Shown piece after piece: positions 1 through 22,212 of a DNA stretch of 64,000 nucleotides; position 1 is the stretch's first letter, and each line of letters starts with the position of its first letter. Below the pieces are notes generated by a model that saw only the letters and a list, made by a program, of their open reading frames with translations, searched no databases and was not told where the DNA came from. Source of the DNA: a virus. Its lineage: Duplodnaviria > Caudoviricetes. Made by a program: the position numbers and the translations under genes. The DNA is taken from positions 1 through 64,000 of the IMG/VR virus record IMGVR_UViG_3300046543_000595, one strand, 5' to 3'.

Positions 1-32
1 CCGCAGCGCTCCGGATCTTTGCCGATACCTGG

Positions 33-284
33 ATGCAATACATGGCCATGATCGAGGCGGACACGTTCGATCCACGCACGCTCGACTTCATCATGGACGT
101 CGAGCAACAGATGCGCCGGCTCCTGCCGACGCCCGATGATTTCAAGTATATCCACGGCCGGCTGCTCCACAGTCCGGCCTGCCCGCGGCTGAAGGCGACG
201 CGCCTGGCGCTGGGCGAGGCCTTTCTCGATAACGGGATGTGGCCGATCAAAAACTATTTCACGACAGGGAGGAATGGAAAATGA
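33..284 (+). CDS. hypothetical protein (probably begins before the window)
   Basis: ORF track; stop overlaps the next ATG at 281. Confidence 0.5.
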   Translation: MQYMAMIEADTFDPRTLDFIMDVEQQMRRLLPTPDDFKYIHGRLLHSPACPRLKATRLALGEAFLDNGMWPIKNYFTTGRNGK

Positions 285-517: not shown

Positions 518-878
518 CATGATGCCCATCCGGCAGAGGAGAGAATTGTGGGCGATGGACCTACTGCATTGGTCACTCAAGATCTGCCCGAAAGGGTTCC
601 GCCGCGACTTTCTTGAATACATGAAGCAGTACGCTGAGATGCATCAGAGGTGCGATGGGAATTCGGGGACGTAGCGGCCGTCGCCCGCAACGTTTCTGCG
701 GAAATGGCCACGACAAGCACGCCGCGCACGGTGTTTACGAGGACGGCCGCTGTGCCAACTGCCGGCGGGTTCAAAACGCAAAAGACTACCTGAAACGAAA
801 AAGGCGCGGTAAAAACCGCGCCAGAATCGTCCCAGGCAAACGTTCATAGGTCCGCCCGACCCATAACACCCCTCCTTT

Positions 879-1760
879 TTAGTTTACCGCCTCGTGCAGT
901 TCGGCACATGCCGCAACCTGCCCTTGATGATTGATGCAATAGGGAATTCCGGACTCCTGATCGTAGCGAACCACAATCGGTCCACCCTGCCGCTCGATGA
1001 ACGTCCCGTCCTCGATCACTCCCCAGATCGGATCGCTCCACGTCACGTCCGGGAGTTTCGGCGCCGGCCGTCCCTTGAGCGCGTACTTGATCGCGTTCGG
1101 ACTGACACCTAAAGCTTTCGCCGTCGCCCGGTAGCTCTTCGTCTTCGAGTAGACCGACTGCGCCCGCTTGATGTCGATGATGTTGGGCCGACCAATCGGT
1201 TTCCCGCTCCGGGTTCCCATGACGGCTGCCCGCTGCAGACCGGCCCTGGTGTTCTCGGAGATGCGGAGCCGCTGCTGCTTTGCCAGCGCCGCCATGATCG
1301 CGATAATCGCATCCTTGAAGAGGCCAGTGGAATCCAGGTACTGTTCGGTGTACGACTTCCAGTCCGCTCTGGCGTTGGTAATGTTGCGCAAATGCTGCAG
1401 CGTCTCGAAGACGCCCTCACGGCTCAGTCGATCGAGCGCCCAGAACCCGATTAGCACCCGCGGCGCTGTCTTCGGTCGCGCCCGCAGGTCGGTCATCATC
1501 TTGTTGAATTGCTCCCGGTCGCTGGTCTTGCCGCTCGCCCGGTCAACGTACTCGGCCACCACCTCGTGACCTAACCCGTGCATCCATTGCCGCAGGATGC
1601 GGATCTGATTCTGCGGGTCTTGCGACCGCTCAACCTTTTTACCGGTTTCGCCGCAGGCCGGGCACTCCGCTACATCGTCGGCGCTCAGGAACTTCTTCCC
1701 GCAGGCCGTGCATCCACACTTGGCCGTCGAAACTCGGGCATAAAGCCATGCCTTACTCAT
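879..1760 (-). CDS. serine recombinase (resolvase/invertase family) with Zn-ribbon insertion and C-terminal HTH
   Basis: YARVST catalytic motif, ASGKTSDREQF, LDRLSRE, ISENTRAGL, GKPIGRP, then YRATAKALGVS HTH. Confidence 0.9.
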   Translation of the reverse strand: MSKAWLYARVSTAKCGCTACGKKFLSADDVAECPACGETGKKVERSQDPQNQIRILRQWMHGLGHEVVAEYVDRASGKTSDREQFNKMMTDLRARPKTAPRVLIGFWALDRLSREGVFETLQHLRNITNARADWKSYTEQYLDSTGLFKDAIIAIMAALAKQQRLRISENTRAGLQRAAVMGTRSGKPIGRPNIIDIKRAQSVYSKTKSYRATAKALGVSPNAIKYALKGRPAPKLPDVTWSDPIWGVIEDGTFIERQGGPIVVRYDQESGIPYCINHQGQVAACAELHEAVN

Positions 1761-1820
1761 CTTCGGGTACCTCCAGAGTCGGCAGGGACAGTACCTGCCG
1801 CTTTCTGCCTTCCGGCGTCG

Positions 1821-2147
1821 TCAGTGGAGGGTCGGGTTCAACCGCACGTTGTGCCGGGCGAGGATCTCGTCGAACTCCGGTCCCATCCGGTGACGGATCT
1901 CGTCCAGAGCTCCGTCCGTCCGCATCAGCCCGTCGTTCGCCATCGCCCCGGCCGCAATCTGGGAAGCCGTCCAGAAATCGTTGCCGGCCGCTATCGCTCG
2001 CGACCGTGTCGCGTAGAAGACGTTGTAATCGTTCTGGAAGATCAGCCGCACGGTCGCGTAATCCCAGCCGACCGGCAAAGACGGCGCCTGCGCTTCCAGA
2101 CTGCCGGCGACCATCAACAATGCGTAGAGTGCCAGTTTCCGCTTCAT
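1821..2147 (-). CDS. hypothetical exported protein
   Basis: signal-peptide-like N-terminus MKRKLALYALLMVAGSLEA; GGAGG SD. Confidence 0.55.
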   Translation of the reverse strand: MKRKLALYALLMVAGSLEAQAPSLPVGWDYATVRLIFQNDYNVFYATRSRAIAAGNDFWTASQIAAGAMANDGLMRTDGALDEIRHRMGPEFDEILARHNVRLNPTLH

Positions 2148-2335
2148 GCTCGTACCTCCACTTTCCTTCCGACAATCGTTGGTGTTCTGGTGTCCGGCCC
2201 CACGGTCTCGATGATCCGGTTCGCTGCGTTGTGAAACTCAAACAAGTAATCCGCGATTCCCATTTTCCTTTTCTCCTTCTGCTGGTCTAAAGCCCCGCGC
2301 CGACTCTGACATCGGATCGCTTCGCGGGGTGCGGG

Positions 2336-2557
2336 CTATTCGTCCTCGGTCGGCTCCTCTCCTTCCGCCAGAAAATAGCCGTCTTCGCTCATGTCGTCCT
2401 GAAATAAATCCTGAATTGCGTCGCTGTCCATTTCTGGCGAGCGGGCGAGGGTTAGCGCGAAGTCCCGAAGCACTTCCGGGTCGTTTGTTTCGTTGAGCCG
2501 CTCCTCGAGCCACTCGAGCGGATATTCCCATTTGTACTTTTTCTCTGTGGTCGTCAT
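2336..2557 (-). CDS. small acidic hypothetical protein
   Basis: AGGAG SD before ATG at 2557. Confidence 0.6.
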   Translation of the reverse strand: MTTTEKKYKWEYPLEWLEERLNETNDPEVLRDFALTLARSPEMDSDAIQDLFQDDMSEDGYFLAEGEEPTEDE

Positions 2558-2644
2558 GGTCTCTACTCCTGTCGTTTGAATTGAGCGACTAATTGAAACT
2601 CCACCGCAATACCGCAAGGTACTGGCCTGTCTGTTGTTTCGCCA

Positions 2645-2899
2645 TTACGCACCCCCGATCATGCCGTGCAGTTCCATCAGTTCCATCGCGGCCGGCACGA
2701 CCGCAAGGAACTCCTCCGCGCTCATGCGCCCAAGTTTCGCGAACGCCCAGCCGTTTTTCGTACGGGTCTCGCGCTTCAGTTGCAACTTGTTCGGGCCGCC
2801 GTTATAGGCGGCAATCTGAACCAGCACCCGGGTACTCTCACCGGCGAGGACCTCACGGCTCTCCACGACCTTATCTTTGGACTCATCGAAAACTGACAT
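2645..2899 (-). CDS. PC4/YdbC-like putative ssDNA-binding protein
   Basis: VQIAAYNGGPNKLQLKRE...KLGRMSAEEF resembles the PC4-like pattern; AGGAG SD. Confidence 0.5.
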   Translation of the reverse strand: MSVFDESKDKVVESREVLAGESTRVLVQIAAYNGGPNKLQLKRETRTKNGWAFAKLGRMSAEEFLAVVPAAMELMELHGMIGGA

Positions 2900-2914
2900 A
2901 TGCTTTCCACTCCT

Positions 2915-2985
2915 GCGGTTGGATTAGAACGGGCTTAGGACCGCTCTGCCGCATTAGGTGGCGAGGATCGCCACCCCTTCTGCGT
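2915..2985 (-). ncRNA. twister ribozyme-like RNA, type-P5 permutation, copy 1
   Basis: minus strand GCAGAAGG-[GGUGGCGA/UCGCCACC]-UAAUGCGGC-[AGAGCGG UCCUAAGC CCGUUCU]; matches the twister core. Confidence 0.85.
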
Positions 2986-3049
2986 TAATTCCCGCAAACC
3001 CCCCAGAAAGCTCCCAAGATTTCTAATTCAGGTTTCATCGTTTCCAACC

Positions 3050-3184
3050 CTAATTCTCGTAGTCGAAAAACATGAAATCGCAGTTGGTGAAGAAGTCGCG
3101 GTAATCCAACTCCTGACAAATCTGAAGCGCGGTTTCAGGGAAAAGTGTGATGTGATTGTATTTCTCGTTTTCAGTCATTTCCAT
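3050..3184 (-). CDS. 44-aa hypothetical protein
   Basis: read by eye: MEMTENEKYNHITLFPETALQICQELDYRDFFTNCDFMFFDYEN; AAGGA SD; lies behind twister copy 2. Confidence 0.5.
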   Translation of the reverse strand: MEMTENEKYNHITLFPETALQICQELDYRDFFTNCDFMFFDYEN

Positions 3185-3197
3185 TCTGTCCTTTCGA

Positions 3198-3272
3198 GCG
3201 GTTGAGTTTGCCCCCGGGCTACCGACCGGGCTGCCGCATTAACGGGAGGACCGCCCTCCCGCCGGTCTGCGT
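3198..3272 (-). ncRNA. twister ribozyme-like RNA, copy 2
   Basis: GCAGACCG-[P1]-UAAUGCGGC-[CCCGG UCGGUAGC CCGGG]; CG/CG covariation of the pseudoknot. Confidence 0.8.
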
Positions 3273-3274
3273 GG

Positions 3275-3679
3275 TTACTCGCTGCCGTCCACGAAACATG
3301 GCACCGGCTCACGAAGGTCGGAGAGCCTCCGTATCGCGCCGGTAGCCACGAACACCTTCAGCGCCTCGCGGCACGCCTCACGGCCCTCCAGCCGGTAAAT
3401 TTCGGCAAACGTCGCCACGTGCGCGTCAAGCCGCGCCGCCTGGTCCGCTAACGGTCTGGGCGCGGACCATTTCAGCGGCAATGTGAGCGCCGCTGCGTGC
3501 GTCATCAGCACGCACGACTCGATCCCGTCTTCGATCTCCCACGGTTGCACCGTCACATAGATCCCCCGCTGACTCTCCGTCAACGTCTTCATGTAATGCA
3601 CGGTGACGCGTATCACCTTGCCGGCCGCTGCCGTCTGCCAGCGGAACTCGTCCCGCGTCTTCTGTTTGAGATTGTCCAT
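3275..3679 (-). CDS. hypothetical protein, paralog of 4231..4704
   Basis: shares GK-RVTV-YMKT...RGIYV-V-PWEIE with 4231..4704. Confidence 0.7.
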   Translation of the reverse strand: MDNLKQKTRDEFRWQTAAAGKVIRVTVHYMKTLTESQRGIYVTVQPWEIEDGIESCVLMTHAAALTLPLKWSAPRPLADQAARLDAHVATFAEIYRLEGREACREALKVFVATGAIRRLSDLREPVPCFVDGSE

Positions 3680-3696
3680 AGTCCATTCACTCCTAA

Positions 3697-3772
3697 GCGG
3701 TTTGATTTTGGCATCGGGTTTCGGACCGACCGCCGACCGCATTAGCGGGCATCGCTGCCCGCCCGTCTGCGT
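3697..3772 (-). ncRNA. twister ribozyme-like RNA, copy 3
   Basis: GCAGACGG-[GCGGGCA/UGCCCGC]-UAAUGCGGUC-[GUCGG UCCGAAAC CCGAU]; GU/AC covariation. Confidence 0.82.
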
Positions 3773-4234
3773 TTAACACCTCCGGCGTTTTGAAGTCTTC
3801 GGCCGAACCGTTTCAGCGGCAATGTGACCAACAATAGCTCGCTCAATGACCTCTAACCTCAGTTCAGCACTCTCAATCCGGCAGTCACAGTGTTTGGGAT
3901 AGCAGGTAAACCGTACACCCGTGTCCGTCACCTCGACGCGATCACATTCGGTTCGTTGTGGTTCCCCGAACACAAAGCTATCCGGAACCTCGAAGACATT
4001 CTCTTTGTCTGGATCGGCAACTTCTTCGATTTCCTCCGTCCATCCCAGCATGTCCGCCGAAGCATCCCAATACACCATCGTGTCCAGGCTCGTTTCGGCC
4101 TGTTTTAAGATCTTGAACTGTGTAATCCTGCGTTCCAGGATCGTCGCCAGTTCTGGCGTTAGATCCACGGCAGCATAGTCACAGTCCCCGTTGAAGTTCT
4201 CGTTGGTGGACCACGTTTTCAGTAGGAGTTTCAT
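3773..4234 (-). CDS. hypothetical protein
   Basis: ORF; ATGA overlap with the upstream gene. Confidence 0.65.
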   Translation of the reverse strand: MKLLLKTWSTNENFNGDCDYAAVDLTPELATILERRITQFKILKQAETSLDTMVYWDASADMLGWTEEIEEVADPDKENVFEVPDSFVFGEPQRTECDRVEVTDTGVRFTCYPKHCDCRIESAELRLEVIERAIVGHIAAETVRPKTSKRRRC

Positions 4235-4704
4235 AAGGACACCTGCGCTTCGATATCTTCCGGCGTGCACGTGCATTCGGTCGTCAAGTGGATGGTGCAG
4301 CGCAAAACGGCCGGTAGAACGGTCGGCATGACTCCCAATTCAAAGAGCGATACCAGCGCCGCCTGCGTCACATCCTTCCCGTGCGTCAAGAACATGGCGG
4401 CCAAGGCCGGCGCGTGAAGATCGACCTTCTGCGCGATCTCCTGCATTTTCCTGGGCGTCGCGCGTGCCAGGTGCTCGACAAACAATCCTTTCGTGCCGCT
4501 GCACAGCACCGTCGATTCGCCCGACCAGCCCCGTCCGTTGTCCGGCTCGATCTCCCACGGGTCCACGTTTACGTAGATACCTCGGCGTGACAGACTCATC
4601 GTCTTCATGTACTTCACCGTCACCCGGGCTATTTTGCCCACGGTTCCGCTGTCGTAGCGGTATTCGTCGTTCGATCTCAGTTTCAGGTTCACTAAATTAG
4701 CCAT
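4231..4704 (-). CDS. hypothetical protein, paralog of 3275..3679
   Basis: GGAGG SD; similarity visible by eye. Confidence 0.7.
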   Translation of the reverse strand: MANLVNLKLRSNDEYRYDSGTVGKIARVTVKYMKTMSLSRRGIYVNVDPWEIEPDNGRGWSGESTVLCSGTKGLFVEHLARATPRKMQEIAQKVDLHAPALAAMFLTHGKDVTQAALVSLFELGVMPTVLPAVLRCTIHLTTECTCTPEDIEAQVSL

Positions 4705-4719
4705 CAGGTCCTCCAAAGA

Positions 4720-4804
4720 GCGGTTTGATTTGGTGCGCGATTTGGGACGCGCCACCGACCGCATTCCGGACCGTCCTCGCCGAGAAACGGTCCGCCCTCT
4801 GCGT
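4720..4804 (-). ncRNA. twister ribozyme-like RNA, copy 4 (variant GAA at the cleavage site)
   Basis: GCAGAGGG-[CGGACCGU...ACGGUCCG]-GAAUGCGGUC-[GCGCG UCCCAAAU CGCGC]. Confidence 0.7.
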
Positions 4805-4805
4805 T

Positions 4806-5297
4806 TTATCCCTCGGTACCACCTCCTTCGTCCGTCGTTTCAGCATCGTAGTGCATCTGCGCCCGCGACAACGCCGTTTCGAAACTCCCGTATTCCTCCG
4901 ATTCCCTGTCGCATAGGTGCATCAGATCGGCCAGAAGATCGCAGATCGCGTCTCCGGCATCCACTCCCGTGGAGTCCATGAACACCTTCAAGGATTGCTC
5001 TGCCCATTCGGCCCGCTCCGGATTCATGTCGTCCGGGTCCGGCGGCAGCCCGGTTTCATCGTCAACTTCCCGGGTTTCCGGTCCTTCAACGGTCGTCGGT
5101 TCGTTTAGAAGACCGTAGCCTTCACTGATCCATTGCCCCATCGCGCCCACTCGATCCACGTACTCAGGCGCATCCGTGTAAACGTCCTGTGAGCCAAGGT
5201 TGACGATCTCTGCCAGGATCTCCCGCATTGAATACTTACGATTGGCTTCCGGGCGTGTCGGTGGAATGTAGTCGTCGTCATCCATTTCCTTATCCAC
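4806..5297 (-). CDS. acidic hypothetical phage protein
   Basis: ORF; C-terminal N-ERAEWAE...DLLADLMHLCD...A-MHYDAE motif. Confidence 0.65.
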   Translation of the reverse strand: MDKEMDDDDYIPPTRPEANRKYSMREILAEIVNLGSQDVYTDAPEYVDRVGAMGQWISEGYGLLNEPTTVEGPETREVDDETGLPPDPDDMNPERAEWAEQSLKVFMDSTGVDAGDAICDLLADLMHLCDRESEEYGSFETALSRAQMHYDAETTDEGGGTEG

Positions 5298-5538
5298 GAG
5301 GCACCCCCAGCGCGTTCAGCGCGTCGCAGACCGCCTGCGCCTGCACCACATGCTTCGATTTGGTATCCGATCCCGCACCTTCCCATCCGTCCTCGTTGTA
5401 CCAGACGGTCGCCATGACCTTGTTTGACGTCTCCGCCGATCCATCTTCCGGCAGCACCCGCACGATCTCGTACGCCGCCTGCACCCCATTGCCGTTTCGC
5501 GCTCCCCGACCGATGCGTACCACGTAGCGGCTATCCAC
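5290..5538 (-). CDS. hypothetical protein
   Basis: GAGG SD with GTG start; coupled to its neighbours. Confidence 0.5.
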   Translation of the reverse strand: MDSRYVVRIGRGARNGNGVQAAYEIVRVLPEDGSAETSNKVMATVWYNEDGWEGAGSDTKSKHVVQAQAVCDALNALGVPRG

Positions 5539-5836
5539 GGTCCACCTCGATCTCCTTCCGGCTCGCCCAATCGCCGCGACGTGGATCTCCCTCCCACACC
5601 CGCCCGTTGTACGACACGTAGGCGATACGCTTCCCCGCATCATCCAGGAGGACTCCCGCGTCGCCCGTCCAATTTCCCATCCCTAAATGATTGGTCGCGA
5701 TGTACTGCCGGACGATCCGGCTCGCATCTGCGTATGTCCGCACGTCCAGGCGCGTCTCGCGCCCGCTATGCACCGGCTTCTGCCAGTACCCACCCACGAT
5801 GTCCGGATTCTTTCGATGTCTCAATATGAGCTTCAT
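5531..5836 (-). CDS. hypothetical phage protein
   Basis: GMGNWTG...IAYVSYNGRVW motif; GGGAG SD; behind twister copy 5. Confidence 0.65.
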   Translation of the reverse strand: MKLILRHRKNPDIVGGYWQKPVHSGRETRLDVRTYADASRIVRQYIATNHLGMGNWTGDAGVLLDDAGKRIAYVSYNGRVWEGDPRRGDWASRKEIEVDRG

Positions 5837-5848
5837 TGCGAACTCCCA

Positions 5849-5918
5849 GCGGTATGATTGGACTCGGCTTTGGACGAGTCTGCCGCATTACGGGGCATCG
5901 CTGCCCCGCCATCTGCGT
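5849..5918 (-). ncRNA. twister ribozyme-like RNA, copy 5
   Basis: GCAGAUGG-[CGGGGCA/UGCCCCG]-UAAUGCGGC-[GACUCG UCCAAAGC CGAGUC]. Confidence 0.85.
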
Positions 5919-6009
5919 TATGCGAGATACCCACCGCTAGATCGTGCTTGCGCCACTTCTCGCCCCGCGCCGCGGGTGAGCGCGGTTGCGTGGTGCCGCG
6001 GGGTTGGGG

Positions 6010-6195
6010 TTAATCGTCAAGCGTCCTGATATCTGCAAACCAGTTCAACCCCTGCGATGCAAAAGTTGAGTTGAGCTCGTTTGAAATAGTCTCAGCCTGC
6101 TCCTTACTCAGTTTCGCGCGGATCTTTGTCACGACTCGCTGAGTCCGATCGTTTACACGTACTAAAACGGCGTGCTCGTTCTGCTTCGTCTTCAT
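6010..6195 (-). CDS. hypothetical protein
   Basis: AGGAGG SD. Confidence 0.55.
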   Translation of the reverse strand: MKTKQNEHAVLVRVNDRTQRVVTKIRAKLSKEQAETISNELNSTFASQGLNWFADIRTLDD

Positions 6196-6205
6196 ATCGT
6201 CCCTC

Positions 6206-6853
6206 CTACTTCTTCTTGAATAGAATCGTTTGGTTCATCCTGTACAGCTGCTGGTCATCCCAGCACAACCGGCAATTCACGCACGGTATCCCCTTTGTAT
6301 CGTGCGGACACTCCACAAACTTCGGTGCCCCCGGCAATCCGATCACCGACCGCACCAACTCACCATGCGACACCATCTCACTGTCGTACGTATACGCTGT
6401 CGCGTACCCACGAGCGCGAGCTTGCGCCATCTGGCCAACCGTATCGCACGAGGCCAGCACGCTCACCCCGGCCCACGACGACCGCTCCACCCGATCCCAC
6501 GAGTGTGTATACGTCCACGCTGGTGACCCAGCACGCTTCCTGTACGCCCTCGCCGCCGCCGATACAATCCGCGCCGCGCCATTCGTCCGGCAATCCCCCG
6601 ACACGTGCAGTCTCAACGGTCGCCAGCCGCTCAATCGTCGTATCCCTGCCGCCTCCGCCCGGGCAATCTCCACCGGGTTCCCGCCATCCAACCGCGCTGT
6701 CTGCGCCGCCACCATGCCTCGTTCCGCATAGCACCCATTCCCCATCAACGGGCAATCCATCGGACACGATTCCAGGTTGACGTACGTCGCGGATACCGGA
6801 CCAGTCTTCCGGTTATCCGAATTCTCGACCGCTATCGCCCGCTTCCGGATCAT
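6206..6853 (-). CDS. Cys-rich phage protein (DUF7227/Gp88-like)
   Basis: NRKTG, SCP-DCPL...GCYA, LRLHVSGD, WTYTH and C-terminal CP...CxxCxxC motifs. Confidence 0.65.
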   Translation of the reverse strand: MIRKRAIAVENSDNRKTGPVSATYVNLESCPMDCPLMGNGCYAERGMVAAQTARLDGGNPVEIARAEAAGIRRLSGWRPLRLHVSGDCRTNGAARIVSAAARAYRKRAGSPAWTYTHSWDRVERSSWAGVSVLASCDTVGQMAQARARGYATAYTYDSEMVSHGELVRSVIGLPGAPKFVECPHDTKGIPCVNCRLCWDDQQLYRMNQTILFKKK

Positions 6854-7245
6854 CGGCTTCTCCCGCCTTCGACCAATCCGCAATGCGCCAATAACCGCGC
6901 CCGCAGCGGTTTCAACTCTTCCACCAAGTACCCATAATCCACGTCTGCCGCGCCGACAATCGCCGACACGTCGTCTCGCGACAAACCCAGCATCATGCCC
7001 TCGTAGGCGAAACTGCCGGAACCTTCCACTCCCGCCACACAATTGATCGGGCAGGCATCGCCTTTCGTGTTTCGGATGAACCTGCCGAGTTTCAACGTCC
7101 AGCCCGTTTGGGGCAATCGGGCAAAGAAGTCATCCAGCGTCATCGCCCCTCGTTCTTTCCGCGTATGGCACGTGCACGCGCAATCGGGATCGACACAGCG
7201 GTCGTGATGGTAGGCTTCGCAGACGGTCGTGATGTTGAGTCTCAT
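6850..7245 (-). CDS. hypothetical protein
   Basis: ORF coupled to both neighbours; alternative start at 7143. Confidence 0.5.
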   Translation of the reverse strand: MRLNITTVCEAYHHDRCVDPDCACTCHTRKERGAMTLDDFFARLPQTGWTLKLGRFIRNTKGDACPINCVAGVEGSGSFAYEGMMLGLSRDDVSAIVGAADVDYGYLVEELKPLRARLLAHCGLVEGGRSR

Positions 7246-7886
7246 TAGAATGCCTCCACTTCTTCGTGCCGTTTCACGTCGATGACCAGCCCATGCGCCC
7301 GACCGACCGTGAAGTCGTTACGGTAGTCCGCGTCGGGCACGAGGAAGTACCTGTGCGCGACGTCTCCACGTTTTCCACCAAGGGTGCACGTTGAACCGAC
7401 AAACCCGGGAGGCACGTTCTTGTGCCAATCGCCAACATTCGCGATCGCCACCCATTTATCGGCAGTCTGCTCCTCAAATGCCTTTCGATCACGGATGTAC
7501 GATTCGCCGATCTGGATCGTCTCGCCCGTGAACCGCTCGTATTCGTCCGGGTTCCAGTTCTTCACCGTGCCCGCCACCGTTTCCAGGTTTACCGTCTCTT
7601 TGGTCTGAAACTCCGGCCAGAACACCAGATACGGCATGGCCCAATGACAATCTTCCTCGTACCAGCCACCCGCCTGCCGCATGTACGGCGGCATCTGCGC
7701 ATTCCGCTCTCTCGATAACTTCACGCCACCATGTGACGGCGTACCGACAAACCACGCGCCTGGAATTAACTCCTTTACGTGATCCGCGCGGCCCCACGGC
7801 GTGCTCATACCCTCCCGTGGTTCAGCCGATCTTTCCGCCTTTTCCGGACGAACAAACATGAACGGGACCATCTTGATTTCACTCAT
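7245..7886 (-). CDS. DUF7007-like protein
   Basis: TPWG-AD...TPSHGG-KLS-ERNA-MP...GGWYEEDC-WA motif. Confidence 0.7.
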   Translation of the reverse strand: MSEIKMVPFMFVRPEKAERSAEPREGMSTPWGRADHVKELIPGAWFVGTPSHGGVKLSRERNAQMPPYMRQAGGWYEEDCHWAMPYLVFWPEFQTKETVNLETVAGTVKNWNPDEYERFTGETIQIGESYIRDRKAFEEQTADKWVAIANVGDWHKNVPPGFVGSTCTLGGKRGDVAHRYFLVPDADYRNDFTVGRAHGLVIDVKRHEEVEAF

Positions 7887-7898
7887 CGAATACTCCCA

Positions 7899-7973
7899 GC
7901 GGTTGAATTTGGCGCAGGTTGTGGACTGCCGCCGACCGCATTAACGCACCCCATCGGGTGCGCCCATCTGCGT
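7899..7973 (-). ncRNA. twister ribozyme-like RNA, copy 6
   Basis: GCAGAUGG-[GCGCACCC/GGGUGCGU]-UAAUGCGGUC-[GCAG UCCACAAC CUGC]. Confidence 0.82.
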
Positions 7974-8089
7974 CTACGCGTTATCCGTCCAATTCGTGAC
8001 GTGACACGCACACTCGCAATTCTTCATCTTGATCTCCTTAGTCATGTTTGTTTGCCTCTGTCTAGACACAGGGAATTTTTCCCCCGTGT

Positions 8090-8317
8090 CTACCTGCTCT
8101 TCGCCGCGTCAAGCGACAGCAACGCCGTCACCGCCATCGCGACCGCCAATACAAGAAACGCCGTCTCCCCCTCGAATTGGCACCACACCAATGCCAAGCA
8201 CAGCGCACTCGTTAATGTCCCTATCCCTACTATCGTCAATCCCACGGCGCGTAACCGAAGCGCGGCATGCTCCCGGCGGGAGAGCACGATGAAAGTTTTC
8301 TGTGTTCTGTCCTTCAT
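8090..8317 (-). CDS. small membrane protein
   Basis: two hydrophobic segments; GGAGG SD. Confidence 0.5.
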   Translation of the reverse strand: MKDRTQKTFIVLSRREHAALRLRAVGLTIVGIGTLTSALCLALVWCQFEGETAFLVLAVAMAVTALLSLDAAKSR

Positions 8318-9078
8318 AAGAGAGTCCTCCGATTGAGAACTATATACCCACTTTAAGAACTTAAACGATTCGTGAGTTAGTGCGCGCATGGAAATGTGGA
8401 TAGGCTCATGTAATCATTGCATTTACATTGCTTCACTTTTTTTCTTCTCCCCCCTTGACAACGGTTTAAGCACACTGCGAAGCCGTTTCTAGGGTTTTCA
8501 ATGGGTTACGAGGTTTGTCGGAGAGGGATACAAAACGGTCGTTTTGTGCGCATGTTTGATTCGATCTAAGCCGGACGGTAGATCAACTAGTTAGGACGCG
8601 GGTTTGAGGCATATCGGCAGGTAGGTTTGTGCGCATGCCGGATTCGTCCCCGGGATCTCCTTCTTTACTTCCCGCCGACCAGCTGCCCGGGTTTCTGGAT
8701 CGGAAGCTCGCCGACCCGTGGCCTGGATCGCTGGATCTTCCTTCCTTCACGACTCCGGTTCCGATCCGCCGATCGGCCCCAGTGCTCGAAACCGCCGGCA
8801 CTCACCTGGCGATGCGACGGCCGCTGGATTCCTCAGCCGGAGCCGGAGTCCCCTCCCGAGGATTCAATCGCATCCTCATAGCCGTTGGGGATAAAAAAAA
8901 AATGGAAATACAGGCAGAGGGAGACGAGGCATAGGGAGTCTGGGATACAAAGGGAACGGTAAGTGCGCGGACAGGTGGAAAGTATTGGGGTTATCGGCAG
9001 GGAGTACAGGAAATTGGGAAAAACGCCCCTAGGTGTACAATGAGGATTTTCAGCGATGTGGCCGACCCTACTATCTTC

Positions 9079-18262: not shown

Positions 18263-18589
18263 ATGTGGAAAGTGGACCCATCCGACAAGTATCCGGAACC
18301 GAGCAAAGAGCACTTAATCAACCGCCGCCAGATCAAGTTCGCGACGATCCCGAATGAATACGCCTGTGGCATCCTCTCTGGTCGCACGCGAATCATCAAC
18401 CTGCCGGAGGACGCGGAGATCGCCGGCTACTTCCATGACTGGCTCCGTGACGGCCTTGGTGTCTATATCTACTCGTCGACATATCCCCGTGTCGAACCAT
18501 GCCTCGAGATCGGCCGGGTGGAACTCATTTACCAGCGCGTTGACAACCCGGCGCCGGCAGTGGTAGATTCTGGGTCGGCGGGTGGGTGA
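18263..18589 (+). CDS. hypothetical protein
   Basis: GAGGAG SD; 3' end overlaps a promoter and the tRNA. Confidence 0.55.
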   Translation: MWKVDPSDKYPEPSKEHLINRRQIKFATIPNEYACGILSGRTRIINLPEDAEIAGYFHDWLRDGLGVYIYSSTYPRVEPCLEIGRVELIYQRVDNPAPAVVDSGSAGG

Positions 18590-18651
18590 AGCGGTTTCCA
18601 CGATGGTCTCATAAGCCATAGATACTGAGGTTCGATTCCTCAGATCCGCCA
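18577..18651 (+). tRNA. tRNA with CAT anticodon (Met or Ile2)
   Basis: cloverleaf; ATGGT-CTCATAA-GCCAT; GTTCGATTC; TTGACA-17-TAGATT promoter at 18540. Confidence 0.88.
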
Positions 18652-18718
18652 TATAGACTTACCCTATACAACGACGAAGGCGCACCAGACCGACAGTTCT
18701 CGAGAGTCGGTAAGCAGA

Positions 18719-18758
18719 CCCCCCGGAGCACCATGGAATTCCGGGGGTTTCGCTTTTT
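18719..18758. terminator. intrinsic terminator between convergent units
   Basis: CCCCCGGA...TCCGGGGG stem followed by a T-rich tail. Confidence 0.6.
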
Positions 18759-19581
18759 ATAGCCAGTTGCGCGCGGCACCGCAATTGCCACAGAACTTCG
18801 ATCGTGACTTGTTGACGTGGCCGCAGACCGTACATTTCGGTTTGTACTTCACGGTCACGGCCTTCGCCGCCAGCACCCGGCCAACCTGCCCGCGCAATCG
18901 CAACACGATCACTCGAGACTGGAACTCAAGCGGGAAGCCGGACACCGTATGGAATGTTTGACTACTCTCACTGCCGGGCACGGTGATACCGGCATCACAA
19001 CTATCCTGACTGATCTGTGCGCCGACGTTAAAATTGGCCGATCGTAGGACTCCGGTTTTGCCGCTATTGCCGGTATGTGCGCCATACGATGCTGTGTTAT
19101 TGCACCACGGCTGCGTATCCCACGGCCACTGCTGTACCGGGATGAACTGGATGACCGGAGGCTGACCATGCCAGTACGGGATCGGCCGCTCGTAATAGCG
19201 AATGATCGGTACATCGAGCACCGGTTGAACGCGTTCCGCCCATGCCTCAACGCGAATCAGCCCATCATCGACCTTAGCGCCGCGGTGAGTTTCGATCTGA
19301 TCGGTCCGCTCAATAAACTTGAAGCGATTGCCGGCGAGCAGATTCCCGTTGCGGATGAACCGCTCGAGTTCAATGTCGGAGTTCGGCGCGATCACGAGGT
19401 GCGTGCTCTCGGTCGCGTCTATACCGTCGACCGACACTTTCACTTGCGCGCGGACGGAATTCAGATTCTTGATCAGGATGGAATATTCGGAACCGAAGGG
19501 AAGGGTGACCGTGCTGTCGATCTCGCGAAGCACCTTGCCGCCGCATTTGACGACGACGACGAAATTTTCCTTAAACGTCAT
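18757..19581 (-). CDS. hypothetical protein with C-terminal double Zn-ribbon
   Basis: LPFGSEYSI-IKN...LERF...RFKF; CTVCG...FCGNCG. Confidence 0.75.
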   Translation of the reverse strand: MTFKENFVVVVKCGGKVLREIDSTVTLPFGSEYSILIKNLNSVRAQVKVSVDGIDATESTHLVIAPNSDIELERFIRNGNLLAGNRFKFIERTDQIETHRGAKVDDGLIRVEAWAERVQPVLDVPIIRYYERPIPYWHGQPPVIQFIPVQQWPWDTQPWCNNTASYGAHTGNSGKTGVLRSANFNVGAQISQDSCDAGITVPGSESSQTFHTVSGFPLEFQSRVIVLRLRGQVGRVLAAKAVTVKYKPKCTVCGHVNKSRSKFCGNCGAARNWL

Positions 19582-19677
19582 ACTTTTCCTTTCAACAGCG
19601 CACCGGCTAAGCGCTCGAGTGTTTAAAGCCGGTTGAATTTGCAGACGCCATGAACTATAACGTGTACGGAGGTTGAA

Positions 19678-20335
19678 ATGATAGTTGAAATCCGAGCCGC
19701 CGAGGGCGGCGATGACGCCAAATTACTCGTCCTGGATCAGTGCCGCATCTACGCGAAACGATGTCTCAGGAACGGTCTTTGACTTTGCGATCGTCGATCA
19801 ACGGCCAGGTATTATCGTTACGATTATTCGTGGCGCGAAAGAACACATCTTCCAATCTGAATCCGGTGGCCATCGCTGGCAGCGGATCCCACCGACCGAA
19901 AAGCGCGGCCGCGTTCAAACCAGCACCATCACGGTAGCCGTCTTACCCGAACCCACTGCCGTCGAAGATCCATTGAAATTACACGATCTGGACTGGATGA
20001 CTTGTCGCTCTGGCGGTAAGGGCGGCCAGAACGTGAACAAAGTCGAATCGGCGGTGCAGATCCGTCATCGTCCCACCGGTCTGATTGTGCGGTGTGAATC
20101 GGAACGCTCGCAGCTGCTGAACAAACAGTCGGCGCTGGAGATCATGCGGGCAAAGCTCTGGGATGCGGCACGTACGCAGCAGAGTAACGCGATAGCCAGT
20201 GATCGTAAACAGCAGGTCGGCGCCGGCATGCGTGGCGACAAGCGACGGACGATCCGGGTGAGGGATGGGGCGGTCGTCGACCACGTGACGGGACAGCGCT
20301 GGAAATTCGATGACTACATTGCGGGACGATGGTAA
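19678..20335 (+). CDS. short class-I peptide chain release factor (RF1-like PxT), expressed through a +1 programmed frameshift at CTT-TGA-C (19777-19783)
   Basis: GGAGG SD and ATG 19678 give MIVEIRAAEGGDDA...NGL*; the +1 frame continues to ESGGHRWQRIPPTEKRGRVQTS and SGGKGGQNVNKVESAV. Confidence 0.9.
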
Positions 20336-20363
20336 TTGACATCGTCCACAGAACGTGGATAAT
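20336..20363 (+). promoter_or_regulatory. sigma70-like promoter of tRNA operon 1
   Basis: TTGACA-16-GATAAT. Confidence 0.7.
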
Positions 20364-20369
20364 CGAACC

Positions 20370-20447
20370 GTGAACATCACGTACATCATGGACGCACGAG
20401 CCGCCGCGAGACCGTGGCCACCCGTGTGTCTGGGAGGCGGTATGTAG
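20370..20447 (+). CDS. leader peptide 1 (MNITYIMDARAAARPWPPVCLGGGM)
   Basis: GTG sits at the predicted +1 (leaderless); its Ala/Arg/Pro/Trp run matches the downstream tRNAs. Confidence 0.65.
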   Translation: MNITYIMDARAAARPWPPVCLGGGM

Positions 20448-20475
20448 CGCGCGAACTACAAATTCCACTCCTCTC

Positions 20476-20507
20476 AGGCTGACAGCAATGTCAGCCTTTT
20501 TTGTTTT
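20476..20507 (+). terminator. intrinsic terminator (attenuator) before tRNA-Pro
   Basis: AGGCTGACA-GCAA-TGTCAGCCT-TTTTTGTTTT. Confidence 0.85.
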
Positions 20508-20508
20508 C

Positions 20509-20580
20509 CGGGATGTAGGAAAGTGGGTATCCACTCCGTTTGGGGCGGAGGAATCGCCAGTTCGAATCTGGTCATCCCGA
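20509..20580 (+). tRNA. tRNA-Pro(TGG)
   Basis: cloverleaf; CTCCG-TTTGGGG-CGGAG. Confidence 0.9.
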
Positions 20581-20589
20581 CTTGTTTAT

Positions 20590-20660
20590 GGGCCGGTAGC
20601 TCAACGGGAGAGCGTCTCACTTGCAATGAGAAAGATGGGGTTCGATTCCCCCCGTGTCCA
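20590..20660 (+). tRNA. tRNA-Ala(TGC)
   Basis: TCTCA-CTTGCAA-TGAGA; G3:U70 pair. Confidence 0.85.
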
Positions 20661-20664
20661 CTTT

Positions 20665-20753
20665 ACGGACGTGGCCGAGTGGTTGAAGGCTCCGGATTCC
20701 AGACCCGGATGACCGTAATGGTCGCATCGTTGGTTCGAATCCAACCGTCCGTG
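20665..20753 (+). tRNA. tRNA with CCA (Trp) anticodon and long variable arm
   Basis: loop TTCCAGA; variable stem GACC-GTAAT-GGTC; A1-U72 and G73. Confidence 0.75.
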
Positions 20754-20760
20754 CTTCAGA

Positions 20761-20860
20761 TTGGCGGTCCCTGTGCAACCAAGCACGAGGCGCTCCTCTG
20801 GTCGAGGGTGGGGCTGGGTTTCGAATCTCCGGCCCGGCGCTGTTGGGACGGGGCCGCCAA
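20761..20860 (+). ncRNA. structured non-tRNA RNA within the tRNA array
   Basis: closing stem TTGGCGGTCC/GGGCCGCCAA; internal hairpins, one with a TTCGAAT loop. Confidence 0.45.
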
Positions 20861-20867
20861 TGTCTTT

Positions 20868-20941
20868 CGGGATGTAGGAAAGCCTGGAAATCCGTCTGCC
20901 TCGGGCGCAGAAGATCGCCGGTTCAAATCCGGCCATCCCGA
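20868..20941 (+). tRNA. tRNA-Pro(CGG)
   Basis: TCTGC-CTCGGGC-GCAGA. Confidence 0.9.
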
Positions 20942-20945
20942 CTTT

Positions 20946-21020
20946 GCCCGCGTAGCTCAGCCTGGATAGAGCGACGAGCTTCTAACTCGAGGGCCGCAGG
21001 TCCGAATCCTGCCGCGGGTA
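20946..21020 (+). tRNA. tRNA-Arg(TCT)
   Basis: CGAG-CTTCTAA-CTCG. Confidence 0.9.
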
Positions 21021-21035
21021 CTATATACTGGCCGC

Positions 21036-21191
21036 ATGTGGCTAATCATCGAAACCGATTCCACGGTCGAGATCGTCCCCGACTTCGGTCGGCAGCATGT
21101 GCTGGTCGGAGATAACGATGGACCGTGCTGGTGCGTGCCTCGAATCGAAGAGAACGATCGCGATCTCGTCATCCACGAAGCGGACAACTGA
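21036..21191 (+). CDS. 51-aa hypothetical protein
   Basis: read by eye: MWLIIETDSTVEIVPDFGRQHVLVGDNDGPCWCVPRIEENDRDLVIHEADN. Confidence 0.5.
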   Translation: MWLIIETDSTVEIVPDFGRQHVLVGDNDGPCWCVPRIEENDRDLVIHEADN

Positions 21192-21192
21192 C

Positions 21193-21220
21193 TTGACAAC
21201 CGATCGGCAGTGTGCATAAT
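21193..21220 (+). promoter_or_regulatory. sigma70-like promoter of tRNA operon 2
   Basis: TTGACA-16-CATAAT. Confidence 0.7.
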
Positions 21221-21319
21221 CGGATCTGAACTTGATAGGGTTTGCGAATCGTCCAGTTTCACTCATTACCTCTCTGGGAACGGCAGTCGAGCAATCGCTG
21301 CCGACCCGGCACTTATAAA

Positions 21320-21409
21320 ATGCGATTTATAAAACAACACGAACACATCCAGACACGCGGTAGGAATACCGTCGGAATGGATACGTTCGTGCCGGAGGTC
21401 ACCGGGTAA
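21320..21409 (+). CDS. leader peptide 2 (MRFIKQHEHIQTRGRNTVGMDTFVPEVTG)
   Basis: amino-acid set equals that of the 21 downstream tRNAs plus one Pro; followed by an attenuator. Confidence 0.7.
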   Translation: MRFIKQHEHIQTRGRNTVGMDTFVPEVTG

Positions 21410-21434
21410 AGAACCAAAACCCGAATGACCGACC

Positions 21435-21470
21435 GGCCGGAGACACAAGGTTCTCCGGCCTTTCTGTTTT
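21435..21470 (+). terminator. intrinsic terminator (attenuator) before tRNA operon 2
   Basis: GGCCGGAGA-CACAAGGT-TCTCCGGCC-TTTCTGTTTT. Confidence 0.85.
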
Positions 21471-21471
21471 C

Positions 21472-21543
21472 TGCCCCGTGGCGCAGTGGTAGCGCGGCGC
21501 TCTCATAAGGCGACGGTCGGGAGTCCGAATCTCCCCGGGGCGA
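21472..21543 (+). tRNA. tRNA with CAT anticodon (Met or Ile2)
   Basis: loop CTCATAA; cloverleaf. Confidence 0.85.
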
Positions 21544-21616
21544 TGGGATGGTGGGACAATAGGAAAATGCCTTGTTTCCCGAGGAAAATGCCTAACGTGC
21601 AGCCATCCTAGCTTTT

Positions 21617-21689
21617 GCCGCGGTAGCACAGTTGGTAGTGCAGCTGACCCGTAATCAGCAGGTCGTGAGTCCGAATCTCACCCGTGGCT
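21617..21689 (+). tRNA. tRNA-Thr(CGT)
   Basis: GCTGA-CCCGTAA-TCAGC (C33). Confidence 0.85.
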
Positions 21690-21690
21690 T

Positions 21691-21765
21691 AGGTCTGTCG
21701 TTAAGCGGGGCGGTAACGTTCCGGGTTGACCGGCTCGCACACACTTCCGTAAAGCGATAGACCTT
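21691..21765 (+). ncRNA. structured non-tRNA RNA
   Basis: closing stem AGGTCTGTCG/CGATAGACCT; internal CCGG-GTTGA-CCGG. Confidence 0.4.
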
Positions 21766-21767
21766 TC

Positions 21768-21839
21768 GCCGCAGTAGCCGAGGGGTAAGGCGCCGAGTTG
21801 GTATCTCGGAGATCGTGGGATCATTCCCCACCTGTGGCT
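21768..21839 (+). tRNA. tRNA-Thr(GGT)
   Basis: CCGAG-TTGGTAT-CTCGG. Confidence 0.85.
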
Positions 21840-21841
21840 TT

Positions 21842-21902
21842 GGCCCGGCACCATGTACTGATGGAGCGCCCGTTCCGGGTAGTCATCGGAGACGGCTGGG
21901 CC
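21842..21902 (+). ncRNA. small multibranch non-tRNA RNA
   Basis: closing stem GGCCCGGC/GCTGGGCC with short internal hairpins. Confidence 0.35.
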
Positions 21903-21905
21903 TTC

Positions 21906-21978
21906 GCTCGCGTAGCACAATTGGCGGTGCGCCACCCTTGTAGCGTGGAGGTTGCCGGATCGTTGCCGGCCGCGAGCT
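21906..21978 (+). tRNA. tRNA-Thr(TGT)
   Basis: loop CTTGTAG; cloverleaf. Confidence 0.8.
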
Positions 21979-21985
21979 TTTGTTT

Positions 21986-22059: not shown

Positions 22060-22061
22060 TC

Positions 22062-22208: not shown

Positions 22209-22212
22209 TCGT

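What the first reader, a model, noticed from the sequence alone, without database searches (positions are those of the whole stretch)
2915..7973. Six permuted twister-like ribozymes punctuate the early leftward operon, each just upstream of a ribosome binding site
All six copies read ACGCAGANNG-[P1 hairpin]-(U/G)AAUGCGG(C/U)-[P4 with 8-nt loop UCNNNA(G/A)(C/U)]. The stems differ in sequence but stay paired, and both pseudoknots covary (GG:CC to CG:CG; GC:GC to GU:AC). This matches the established twister core in the type-P5 permutation. Inference: self-cleavage cuts the polycistronic mRNA into gene-sized units with 5'-OH ends, an RNase-independent analogue of T7 RNase III processing. The repeats might also promote shuffling of gene cassettes.
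Basis: partly seen in the sequence, partly recalled or inferred. Interest (0 to 1): 0.88.

Follow-up and report, generated by a model that had tools for sequence, protein, structure and literature searches.

The report
Six twister ribozymes in a phage operon
Six copies of a known self-cutting RNA (the type-P5 twister ribozyme) sit between gene blocks of one operon in a 107-kb soil phage and probably chop its long messenger RNA into seven pieces; this is a clean example of something already seen in phages, not a new kind of element.

Summary
Five of the six copies pass the Rfam Twister-P5 gathering score (45.4-55.7 bits against 37.6). The sixth, at 4804-4735, is missed by Rfam. A model built without it finds it at 24.8 bits, E 8.8e-5, and the next best hit in the window scores 10.8 bits. 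The 107,420-base genome holds no other copy.

Across the six copies 97.2% of pair cells are paired, against 74.8% in shuffles. Eleven of 18 pairs show compensatory changes, and both pseudoknots are included.

Each ribozyme fills an 85-173 nt gap between genes on the minus strand. In 5 of 6 it starts 0-3 nt after a stop codon, and a Shine-Dalgarno site and start codon follow it. The cuts would give seven pieces of 1-4 genes, not single genes.

The kind is known. The same motif occurs in at least 36 viral contigs, five of them with arrays of 3-6, and in diverse bacteria. Hammerhead arrays in prophages were described in 2011.

Cleavage, its purpose and "early" timing are untested. One extra feature is an invariant ACCGC tail that may refold the new 5' end.

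The parts
7913..7973 (-). Twister-P5 ribozyme, copy c7972 (subtype A). Predicted cut U7943^A7942. T1 UGG:CCA, T2 GU:AC.
   Evidence: Rfam 45.4 bits; R1 44.0 bits; fold and cut site
5862..5918 (-). Twister-P5 ribozyme, copy c5917 (subtype B). Predicted cut U5890^A5889. T1 UGG:CCA, T2 GC:GC. It is preceded by a 92-nt structured non-coding stretch.
   Evidence: Rfam 55.7 bits; R1 62.4 bits
4735..4804 (-). Twister-P5-like ribozyme, copy c4803 (subtype A). P1 is lengthened by a 12-nt extra hairpin tip, and G replaces U 5' of the cut. Predicted cut G4766^A4765. T1 GGG:CCC, T2 GU:AU.
   Evidence: No Rfam hit at E<=1; R1 24.8 bits, E 8.8e-5 in 64 kb, from a model built without it
3713..3772 (-). Twister-P5 ribozyme, copy c3771 (subtype A). 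Predicted cut U3744^A3743. T1 CGG:CCG, T2 GU:AC.
   Evidence: Rfam 45.8 bits; R1 55.0 bits
3213..3272 (-). Twister-P5 ribozyme, copy c3271 (subtype B). Predicted cut U3241^A3240. T1 CCG:CGG, T2 GC:GC.
   Evidence: Rfam 49.3 bits; R1 58.4 bits
2928..2985 (-). Twister-P5 ribozyme, copy c2984 (subtype B). Predicted cut U2956^A2955. T1 AGG:CCU, T2 GC:GC.
   Evidence: Rfam 47.8 bits; R1 58.1 bits
7887..7912 (-). 3' tail of c7972: A-rich linker, invariant ACCGC (7903-7899), Shine-Dalgarno GGGAG, then ATG at 7886.
   Evidence: Sequence; alignment invariants; GCGG:CCGC helix P=0.96 in the 3' product
5837..5861 (-). 3' tail of c5917: linker, ACCGC (5853-5849), Shine-Dalgarno GGGAG, then ATG at 5836.
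   Evidence: helix is in the MFE, P=0.25
4705..4734 (-). 3' tail of c4803: linker, ACCGC (4724-4720), Shine-Dalgarno GGAGG, then ATG at 4704.
   Evidence: helix P=0.2, not in the MFE
3680..3712 (-). 3' tail of c3771: linker, ACCGC (3701-3697), Shine-Dalgarno AGGAG, then ATG at 3679.
   Evidence: helix P=0.75
3185..3212 (-). 3' tail of c3271: linker, ACCGC (3202-3198), Shine-Dalgarno AAGGA, then ATG at 3184.
   Evidence: helix P=0.84
2900..2927 (-). 3' tail of c2984: linker, ACCGC (2919-2915), Shine-Dalgarno AGGAG, then ATG at 2899.
   Evidence: helix P=0.07, not in the MFE
803..8045 (-). Leftward gene string of about 17 ORFs. It runs from a Cys-rich 17-23-aa leader ORF (8045/8027-7974) to a resolvase gene (1760-879) and a terminator-like hairpin (822-803). 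Most genes have no known function. Exceptions: DUF7007 at 7886-7245 and DUF7227 at 6853-6206.
   Evidence: ORFs; Pfam and PHROGs; terminator scan; GC-skew sign change near 8.8 kb

Best explanation
The six elements are genuine type-P5 twister self-cleaving ribozymes, transcribed as part of one leftward multi-gene mRNA of an uncultivated 107-kb soil phage.

How each one would act (inferred):
- Each ribozyme folds as soon as its P4 loop has been made, which is before the downstream ribosome binding site emerges.
- It cuts itself between N-1 and A of (U/G)^AAUGCGG.
- Six cuts turn the transcript into seven pieces: a leader, then blocks of 4, 3, 2, 1, 2 and 4 genes.

Why the P5 permutation matters (inferred):
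- P1 is a closed hairpin lying 5' of the cut, so every upstream piece ends in a stable GC-rich hairpin (-14 to -18 kcal/mol) plus one nucleotide carrying a 2',3'-cyclic phosphate.
- Every downstream piece starts with 5'-OH-AAUGCGG, then the P4 hairpin, a short conserved tail and the Shine-Dalgarno site.
- The likely effect is to uncouple the stability and translation of the gene blocks, with structured ends on both products.

Shown here: family identity, structure, covariation, placement, and recurrence in other phages. Inferred: cleavage in vivo, co-transcription as one unit, and the benefit.
For: Family match and copy number:
- Rfam RF02684 is above gathering for 5 of 6 copies.
- The sixth copy is found by a model that never saw it: 24.8 bits against a 10.8-bit background.
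- There are exactly 6 copies in the genome, all on the gene strand.

Structure:
- Across the six copies 97.2% of pair cells are paired, against 74.8 +/- 3.1% in shuffles.
- 11 of 18 pairs carry compensatory changes, 0 of 500 shuffles reach this, and T1 and T2 are 100% paired.
- The same holds for 58 hits in the window plus viral contigs: 92.3% against 73.2%, and 15 of 18 pairs.
- The RNAfold MFE of each full element is the P2/P1/P4 fold in 6 of 6.

Core residues and placement:
- The invariant residues CGCA-GA, the A 3' of the cut, and the loop U and A are kept in all six.
- Ribozymes occupy 6 junctions of 85-173 nt. Seven other junctions overlap or are at most 11 nt.
- P1 hairpins fold at -14.0 to -17.6 kcal/mol.

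Generality:
- 54 of 57 distinct hits have a Shine-Dalgarno site plus start codon within 60 nt, at a median of 27 nt after P4.
- A stop codon lies 0-2 nt before CGCA in 25 of 59 hits.
- Arrays of 3-6 occur in 5 of 36 viral loci, with units of 420-3480 nt.

Literature (passages read):
- The U 5' of the cut is 'less conserved'; T1 has three pairs; T2 uses a conserved GC (PMC5408937).
- Clustered hammerheads flank genes in prophages and cleave in vitro (PMC3088659).
- An engineered twister-between-cistrons system needed a stem-loop just upstream of the cut to keep the released mRNAs expressed (PMC9872166).
Against: - There is no RNA evidence. None of the 6 listed runs is on record as RNA, and the phage is uncultivated, so cleavage in vivo is not shown.
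- Copy c4803 fails the Rfam threshold. It has G at N-1, whereas only 1 of the 58 other hits has a non-U there.
- The three subtype-A copies have C instead of the usually conserved A after T2, and GU instead of GC in T2, though the latter is compensated.
- No promoter was identified. Only 3 sigma-70-like sites were found in 10 kb, against 3.7 expected. A single transcript is therefore inferred from gene orientation and GC skew alone.
- Three distal junctions of 60-188 nt have no ribozyme, so processing is not a rule for every gap.
- Stop codons abut the ribozyme's 5' strand, so terminating ribosomes could interfere with folding.
Confidence: 0.8

Rival explanations
1. The ribozymes are active, but their main role is regulatory or defensive rather than simple mRNA maturation. 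Cleavage could be gated by ribosomes: the upstream stop codon abuts the 5' strand, and the conserved tail next to the Shine-Dalgarno site competes for the P2 strand. Alternatively, the 5'-OH and cyclic-phosphate ends could serve to evade or engage host RNA repair and decay enzymes.
For: - A stop codon lies 0-3 nt from CGCAGA in 5 of 6 copies here, and 0-2 nt in 25 of 59 hits overall.
- The invariant ACCGC tail is complementary to GCGG of the P2 and T2 strand.
- The helix is predicted to switch from P2 in the full RNA to GCGG:CCGC in the 3' product in 4 of 6 copies.
Against: - Nothing here shows any dependence on a ligand or on ribosomes.
- Tail complementarity is not general: 19 of 57 distinct hits have 5 nt or more, and the mean longest match is 3.61 nt against 2.99 in shuffles.
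- The phage encodes no RtcB or RNase III domain.
Confidence: 0.12
2. The repeats act mainly at the DNA level, as short homologies that let ribozyme-plus-gene cassettes duplicate or be exchanged. Ribozyme activity would be secondary.
For: - Genes 4704-4231 and 3679-3275 are paralogues (36% identity, E 5e-25).
- Each follows a subtype-A ribozyme, and these two share a 12-nt tail stretch.
- A resolvase gene closes the operon.
Against: - Stems differ between copies while staying paired. This shows selection on RNA structure, not on DNA identity.
- Mean column identity across the elements is only 62%, and shared exact runs are about 15 nt at most.
- No operon protein has a homologue in the 119 loci then held, i.e. 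the viral pattern matches, of which R1 later confirmed a twister in 36 of the 99 it was run on.
- Close-relative searches in viral contigs with two of the proteins found nothing.
Confidence: 0.05
3. The elements are inactive relics, or merely structured spacers such as stabilising hairpins, that still resemble twister.
For: - Activity is untested.
- c4803 and the subtype-A copies depart from the consensus.
- In the literature, many computationally predicted ribozyme candidates did not cleave when tested (PMC8782182, passage).
Against: Relics would not keep two pseudoknots paired through compensatory changes in all six copies while P1 and P4 sequences diverge completely. All core residues are retained.
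Confidence: 0.03

Closest known systems
Type-P5 twister ribozyme (Rfam RF02684). The class was described by Roth et al. 2014, a paper I recall but could not read.
   Same: The order of elements is the same: P2 5' strand, GA, T1 strand, closed P1 hairpin, N^AA, P2 3' strand, T2 dinucleotide, then P4 with the 8-nt loop. The conserved core letters and both pseudoknots match. Five of six copies score above gathering.
   Different: - One copy has G at N-1 and a lengthened P1, and falls below the Rfam score.
- Three copies (subtype A) use GU:AC or GU:AU for T2, have C in place of the A after T2, and have a P4 extended by 3 pairs across a bulged G.
- All six carry an extra invariant ACCGC tail that is not in the Rfam model.
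Clustered hammerhead ribozymes flanking genes in prophages (Perreault et al. 2011, PMC3088659; passages read, supplementary figures not seen)
   Same: Several self-cleaving ribozymes lie close together and flank single genes or short gene blocks in phage DNA. The authors proposed processing of long phage transcripts into operon-length or gene-length mRNAs. Three such arrays cleaved in vitro.
   Different: The ribozyme class differs: twister, not hammerhead. Here there are six copies in one operon of a complete phage genome, and none of the genes is ardA-like.
pRAP, an engineered twister-assisted polycistronic expression system (PMC9872166; passages read)
   Same: A twister sits between cistrons in front of each RBS. 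Co-transcriptional cutting gives separate mRNAs, and a stem-loop just 5' of the cut was needed for expression of the released cistrons.
   Different: pRAP is man-made. It uses a twister that cuts at its own 5' end, plus an added hairpin. In the phage the P5 permutation supplies that hairpin (P1) itself.
RNase III processing of the T7 early polycistronic mRNA (recalled textbook knowledge, not checked here)
   Same: An operon-length phage transcript is cut at intercistronic structured sites, leaving hairpins at the new ends.
   Different: T7 relies on a host protein enzyme acting on double-stranded stems. Here the RNA would cut itself, giving 5'-OH and 2',3'-cyclic phosphate ends. No RNase III domain is encoded by this phage.

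Membership tests
Twister-P5 (RF02684) | Covariance-model score at or above the curated gathering score (37.6 bits) | tested here: met
   Met by 5 of 6 copies: 55.7, 49.3, 47.8, 45.8 and 45.4 bits. Not met by the copy at 4804-4735, which gave no match at E<=1. That copy scores 24.8 bits, E 8.8e-5, with my own model built without it.
Twister-P5 (RF02684) | Stems P1, P2 and P4 present and supported by covariation | tested here: met
   P1 outer 4 pairs are 100% paired, and all 4 show changes on both sides. P4's 3 pairs are 100% paired, 2 with compensatory changes. P2 is invariant and 100% paired, so it says nothing either way.
Twister-P5 (RF02684) | Two pseudoknots: T1 (three Watson-Crick pairs between L1 and the P4 loop) and T2 (a GC dinucleotide with the P4 loop), as described in PMC5408937 | tested here: met
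   T1 is 100% paired in 6 of 6 copies, with 2 of 3 pairs compensatory. T2 is 100% paired: CG three times and UA three times at one pair; GC five times and GU once at the other. In 56 distinct hits from phage contigs, T1 is 98.8% paired.
Twister-P5 (RF02684) | Strongly conserved nucleotides of L1 and L4, including the A 3' of the scissile bond | tested here: met
   These are invariant in all six copies: A-CGCAGA, the G of NNG, AAUGCGG, G-UC of the loop start, and the loop A. The residue 5' of the cut is U in 5 copies and G in 1, and the literature calls this position less conserved. The A after T2 is C in 3 copies.
Twister-P5 (RF02684) | P5-type circular permutation: P1 closed by a loop, with the chain ends between P4 and the P2 5' strand | tested here: met
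   The order of elements in the Rfam and R1 alignments shows this. No consistent P5 pairing of the flanks was seen by eye; GCGG occurs upstream in only 2 of 6 copies.
Twister-P5 (RF02684) | Site-specific self-cleavage giving 2',3'-cyclic phosphate and 5'-OH ends | not testable with these tools
   No RNA run holds this phage. This needs an in vitro transcription and cleavage assay.

The most novel reading that the evidence does not exclude
The invariant tail after P4 (A-rich linker, then ACCGC, then the Shine-Dalgarno site) may be a built-in stand-in for the ribozyme's own 5' strand.

Once the cut releases the 5' strand and P1 with the upstream piece, the tail pairs with GCGG at the new 5' end. 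In 4 of 6 copies the next three letters also fit the P4-loop T1 site. The fresh 5'-OH end would then be locked into a compact, catalytically dead twister-like fold right next to the ribosome binding site.

Together with the P1 hairpin left on the upstream piece, the P5 permutation would be a self-contained 'cut and cap both ends' module for phage operons.
Probability: 0.2. Interest if true: 0.6.

Novelty: new member of a known kind. Interest (0 to 1): 0.4.

Why it matters
What bacterial and phage twister ribozymes are for is still called largely elusive in the literature (PMC6765202, section 13 read).

This phage offers a compact test case:
- Six diverged but intact copies lie in one operon.
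- Each is wedged between a stop codon and a ribosome binding site.
- The P5 permutation leaves a hairpin on both new RNA ends.
- The same layout recurs in other viral contigs.

It therefore supports, but does not prove, the long-standing idea that phages use self-cleaving RNAs to break operon transcripts into separately handled messages. It also gives natural parts that parallel engineered ribozyme insulators. It does not reveal a new class of element.

Tried and rejected
Expression data:
- No RNA holder is listed among the 6 runs that hold the stretch.
- Laying the contigs of 4 DNA runs showed identical sequence over all six ribozymes, so there were no natural variants to test.

Relatives of the phage:
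- blastn 'distant' of 2600-8400 against 50,697 phage records found no match.
- The search for related loci with the 157-aa and 213-aa proteins found no relative in viral contigs.
- tblastn of 18 operon ORFs against 119 loci gave no hit at E<=1e-3. One of these queries, the small leader ORF, was entered out of frame by my mistake and does not count.

Other ribozymes or extra copies:
- The Rfam E-value scan of 2500-8500 found only the five twisters.
- Rfam gathering on 64001-107420 gave 0 matches.
- R1 with filters off found nothing better than 10.8 bits elsewhere.
- The ribozyme-free gaps (6009-5919, 2644-2558, 2335-2148, 1820-1761) fold, but I did not see a ribozyme-like fold in their MFE structures, and for 2500-8500 Rfam found only the twisters.

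Ideas tested and not upheld:
- P5 stem between the flanks. I found no consistent pairing: GCGG occurs upstream in 2 of 6 copies.
- Tail complementarity as a family-wide feature. It occurs in a subgroup only (the window, L010, L055, L026, L031): 19 of 57 distinct hits have 5 nt or more. In bacterial genomes my narrow regex parsed 64 matches in 120 loci, and only 2 had a similar tail.
- Tail mimicry of T1. The letter before GG matches T1 in 3 of 5 copies, and UCG fits the odd CGG loop in the sixth. I judge this suggestive, not significant.
- T1 diversity as a way to avoid cross-pairing of neighbouring copies. This is not general, since L031 uses GUG:CAC in 5 of 6 copies.
- Phage-encoded RtcB or RNase III. 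Neither is present.

Papers and tools not available:
- Roth 2014, Weinberg 2015 and Felletti 2017 are not held. What I say of them is recalled or taken from the review.
- Supplementary files were not opened. Figures S1-S3 of PMC3088659 may bear on how like these arrays are.

Full report
WHAT IS THERE

The window is the first 64 kb of a 107,420-base virus record rated complete. Its two ends repeat exactly for 127 bases, and its GC content is 58.8%.

On the minus strand between 7973 and 2915 lie six copies of one element. Each reads A-CGCAGA-NNG, then a closed GC-rich hairpin, then (U/G)AAUGCGG(C/U), then a second hairpin with an 8-nt loop UCNNNA(A/G)(C/U). After that comes an A-rich linker, an invariant ACCGC, a Shine-Dalgarno-like run and a start codon.

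A regex for the core finds 6 matches on the minus strand, none on the plus strand, and none elsewhere in the genome.

IS IT A TWISTER RIBOZYME?

- Rfam's Twister-P5 model (RF02684, gathering 37.6 bits) matches five copies at 45.4-55.7 bits over its full length. The same search rang in 0 of 14 control genomes.
- The copy at 4804-4735 gave no Rfam match even at E<=1. Its first hairpin carries a 12-nt extra tip, and the residue 5' of the cut is G, not U.
- I built a model (R1) from five window copies and 17 viral-contig copies, leaving this copy out. With filters off over the whole window it scored 24.8 bits (E 8.8e-5), while the best unrelated hit scored 10.8 bits.
- A review of twister structure states that the U 5' of the scissile bond is 'less conserved' or 'nonconserved' (PMC5408937, passages). 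Among 58 other hits, 57 have U and one has C.
- I therefore count the sixth copy as a probable, slightly atypical member.

STRUCTURE AND COVARIATION

On the six copies aligned to R1, with both pseudoknots written in:
- 97.2% of 108 pair cells are standard pairs, against 74.8 +/- 3.1% in shuffles and 27-42% when partners are slid by 1-3 columns.
- 11 of 18 pairs show changes on both sides, and 0 of 500 shuffles reach any measure.
- T1 is three pairs and changes in step: UGG:CCA twice, then GGG:CCC, CGG:CCG, CCG:CGG and AGG:CCU.
- T2 is GC:GC three times, GU:AC twice and GU:AU once.
- P2 (CGCA:UGCG) never varies, so it says nothing either way.

RNAfold gives the P2/P1/P4 fold as the minimum-energy structure for all six full elements.

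Two subtypes are visible. Subtype A (7973, 4804, 3772) has GU for T2, a C after it, and a P4 lengthened by three pairs across a bulged G. Subtype B (5918, 3272, 2985) is closer to the consensus (by eye).

SETTING

All genes from about 8045 down to 879 run leftward. GC skew changes sign near 8.8 kb, and a strong terminator-like hairpin follows the last gene at 822-803.

By my own gene calls (ORFs plus Shine-Dalgarno sites) there are about 17 ORFs and 16 junctions:
- Six junctions of 85-173 nt are filled by the ribozyme elements.
- Seven overlap or are at most 11 nt apart.
- Three distal ones (60, 87 and 188 nt) have no ribozyme.

Predicted cuts fall at U7943^A7942, U5890^A5889, G4766^A4765, U3744^A3743, U3241^A3240 and U2956^A2955. 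They would give a leader piece, internal pieces of about 2053, 1124, 1022, 503 and 285 nt, and a last piece of about 2150 nt. These carry 4, 3, 2, 1, 2 and 4 ORFs. The units are therefore gene blocks, not single genes.

In 5 of 6 copies a stop codon ends 0-3 nt before CGCAGA. Two of those ORFs are only 17-23 aa long and may not be real.

Gene functions are mostly unknown. The exceptions are DUF7007, DUF7227 and a resolvase. I found no promoter, and nothing I ran speaks to 'early' timing.

HOW IT MOST LIKELY WORKS (INFERENCE)

In this permutation the whole catalytic fold is complete once the P4 loop is transcribed, which is ahead of the downstream ribosome binding site.

The cut leaves the upstream RNA ending in the P1 hairpin (-14.0 to -17.6 kcal/mol) plus one nucleotide. 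It leaves the downstream RNA starting 5'-OH-AAUGCGG, followed by P4.

An engineered system that put twister between cistrons in E. coli found that released cistrons were poorly expressed until a stem-loop was placed just upstream of the cut (PMC9872166, passages). The P5 permutation supplies that hairpin by itself.

I therefore read the array as a natural self-processing operon that uncouples the fate of its gene blocks.

ACCGC, 8-10 nt after P4, is invariant in all six copies, although P1 and P4 have diverged completely.

It is complementary to GCGG, which is the P2 3' strand shifted by one base. In the uncut RNA the P2 helix dominates (pair probabilities 0.46-1.0), and the GCGG:CCGC helix is at most 0.04. 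In the 3' product the GCGG:CCGC helix is in the minimum-energy fold in 4 of 6 copies, with probabilities 0.96, 0.25, 0.75 and 0.84. In the other two it is 0.2 and 0.07.

Similar tails occur in some GC-rich viral contigs (L010, L055, L026, L031), but not family-wide. Of 57 distinct hits, 19 have 5 nt or more of complementarity, and the mean longest match is 3.61 nt against 2.99 in shuffles. This is a lead, not a result.

HOW KNOWN IS THIS?

R1 confirmed 53 ribozymes in 36 of the 99 loci searched, and the other 63 loci were chance pattern matches.
- Arrays occur in L031 (6 copies), L059 (5), L032 (4), L055 (3) and L022 (3), with two copies in L010. Units are 420-3480 nt and usually hold one or two ORFs.
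- 54 of 57 distinct hits are followed by a Shine-Dalgarno site and start codon, at a median of 27 nt after P4.
- A stricter pattern also hit its limit at 120 stretches in bacterial genomes of many phyla, one of them with four copies.
- The literature I could read says three things. Hammerhead ribozymes cluster around genes in prophages, cleave in vitro, and may process long phage transcripts (PMC3088659). Twister and other classes occur in similar phage-like contexts (PMC8782182). Processing of polycistronic transcripts by hammerhead and twister has been suggested but not established (PMC6765202).
- My searches for twister with phage, polycistronic, Shine-Dalgarno or intergenic turned up no paper describing twister-P5 arrays in a phage operon. 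However, the founding twister papers are not held, so I cannot say it is unreported.

VERDICT

The function is plausible and in line with earlier proposals, and it is untested. This is a new member of a known kind.

Noticed in passing
window 18577-24061, + strand: Rfam reports a cluster of 28 tRNA genes. That is a large set for a 107-kb phage.
   Followed up: no
window 4231-4704 and 3275-3679, - strand: These two genes are paralogues (36% identity over 121 aa, E 5e-25). Each is directly preceded by a subtype-A ribozyme, and the two tails share a 12-nt stretch. This looks like duplication of a ribozyme-plus-gene unit. No Pfam or PHROG family matched.
   Followed up: partly
genome ends (window 1-127 and genome 107294-107420): The terminal repeat is exactly 127 bases. 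From memory, this equals a common largest assembler word size. The record may therefore be a circular or permuted assembly rather than one with physical repeats, and 'left end' may be arbitrary.
   Followed up: no
window 8085-8057 and 8045-7974, - strand: A 13-bp perfect hairpin sits just upstream of a Cys-rich 17-23-aa ORF (MKNCECACHVTNWTDNA from the second ATG). The ORF's stop codon lies 1 nt before the first ribozyme. This could be a leader or regulatory region of the operon.
   Followed up: no
window 3065-3172: In runs X1 and X2 a second contig (3848 and 11614 bases) matches only this part of the 44-aa gene, with 11 differences, and diverges on both sides. A relative of this small gene therefore sits in a different context in the same samples.
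   Followed up: no
L031:2680-5406 (+); L059:531-4439 (-); L032:2617-4671 (-): Other viral contigs carry arrays of 6, 5 and 4 twister-P5 copies at 100-1400 nt spacing. L059's copies are followed by a different conserved tail: a CCCAC...GUGGG hairpin overlapping the ribosome binding site. In 3 of L031's 6 copies CGCAUU, the complement of the new 5' end AAUGCG, is displayed in a hairpin loop; two more carry CCGCAU(U) unstructured.
   Followed up: partly
L004, L012, L016 and about 40 other viral loci: A near-identical stretch (CGCAGAAAGCTCTCTGG...) matched my first pattern in many contigs but is not a twister. None of these loci (among the 99 searched) was hit by model R1 at E<=0.001. It is a chance match in a widely sampled prophage.
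   Followed up: yes
window 803-822, - strand: A strong terminator-like hairpin (8 pairs, 7 of them G-C, followed by a T run) lies right after the resolvase gene. It probably marks the end of the leftward transcription unit.
   Followed up: no
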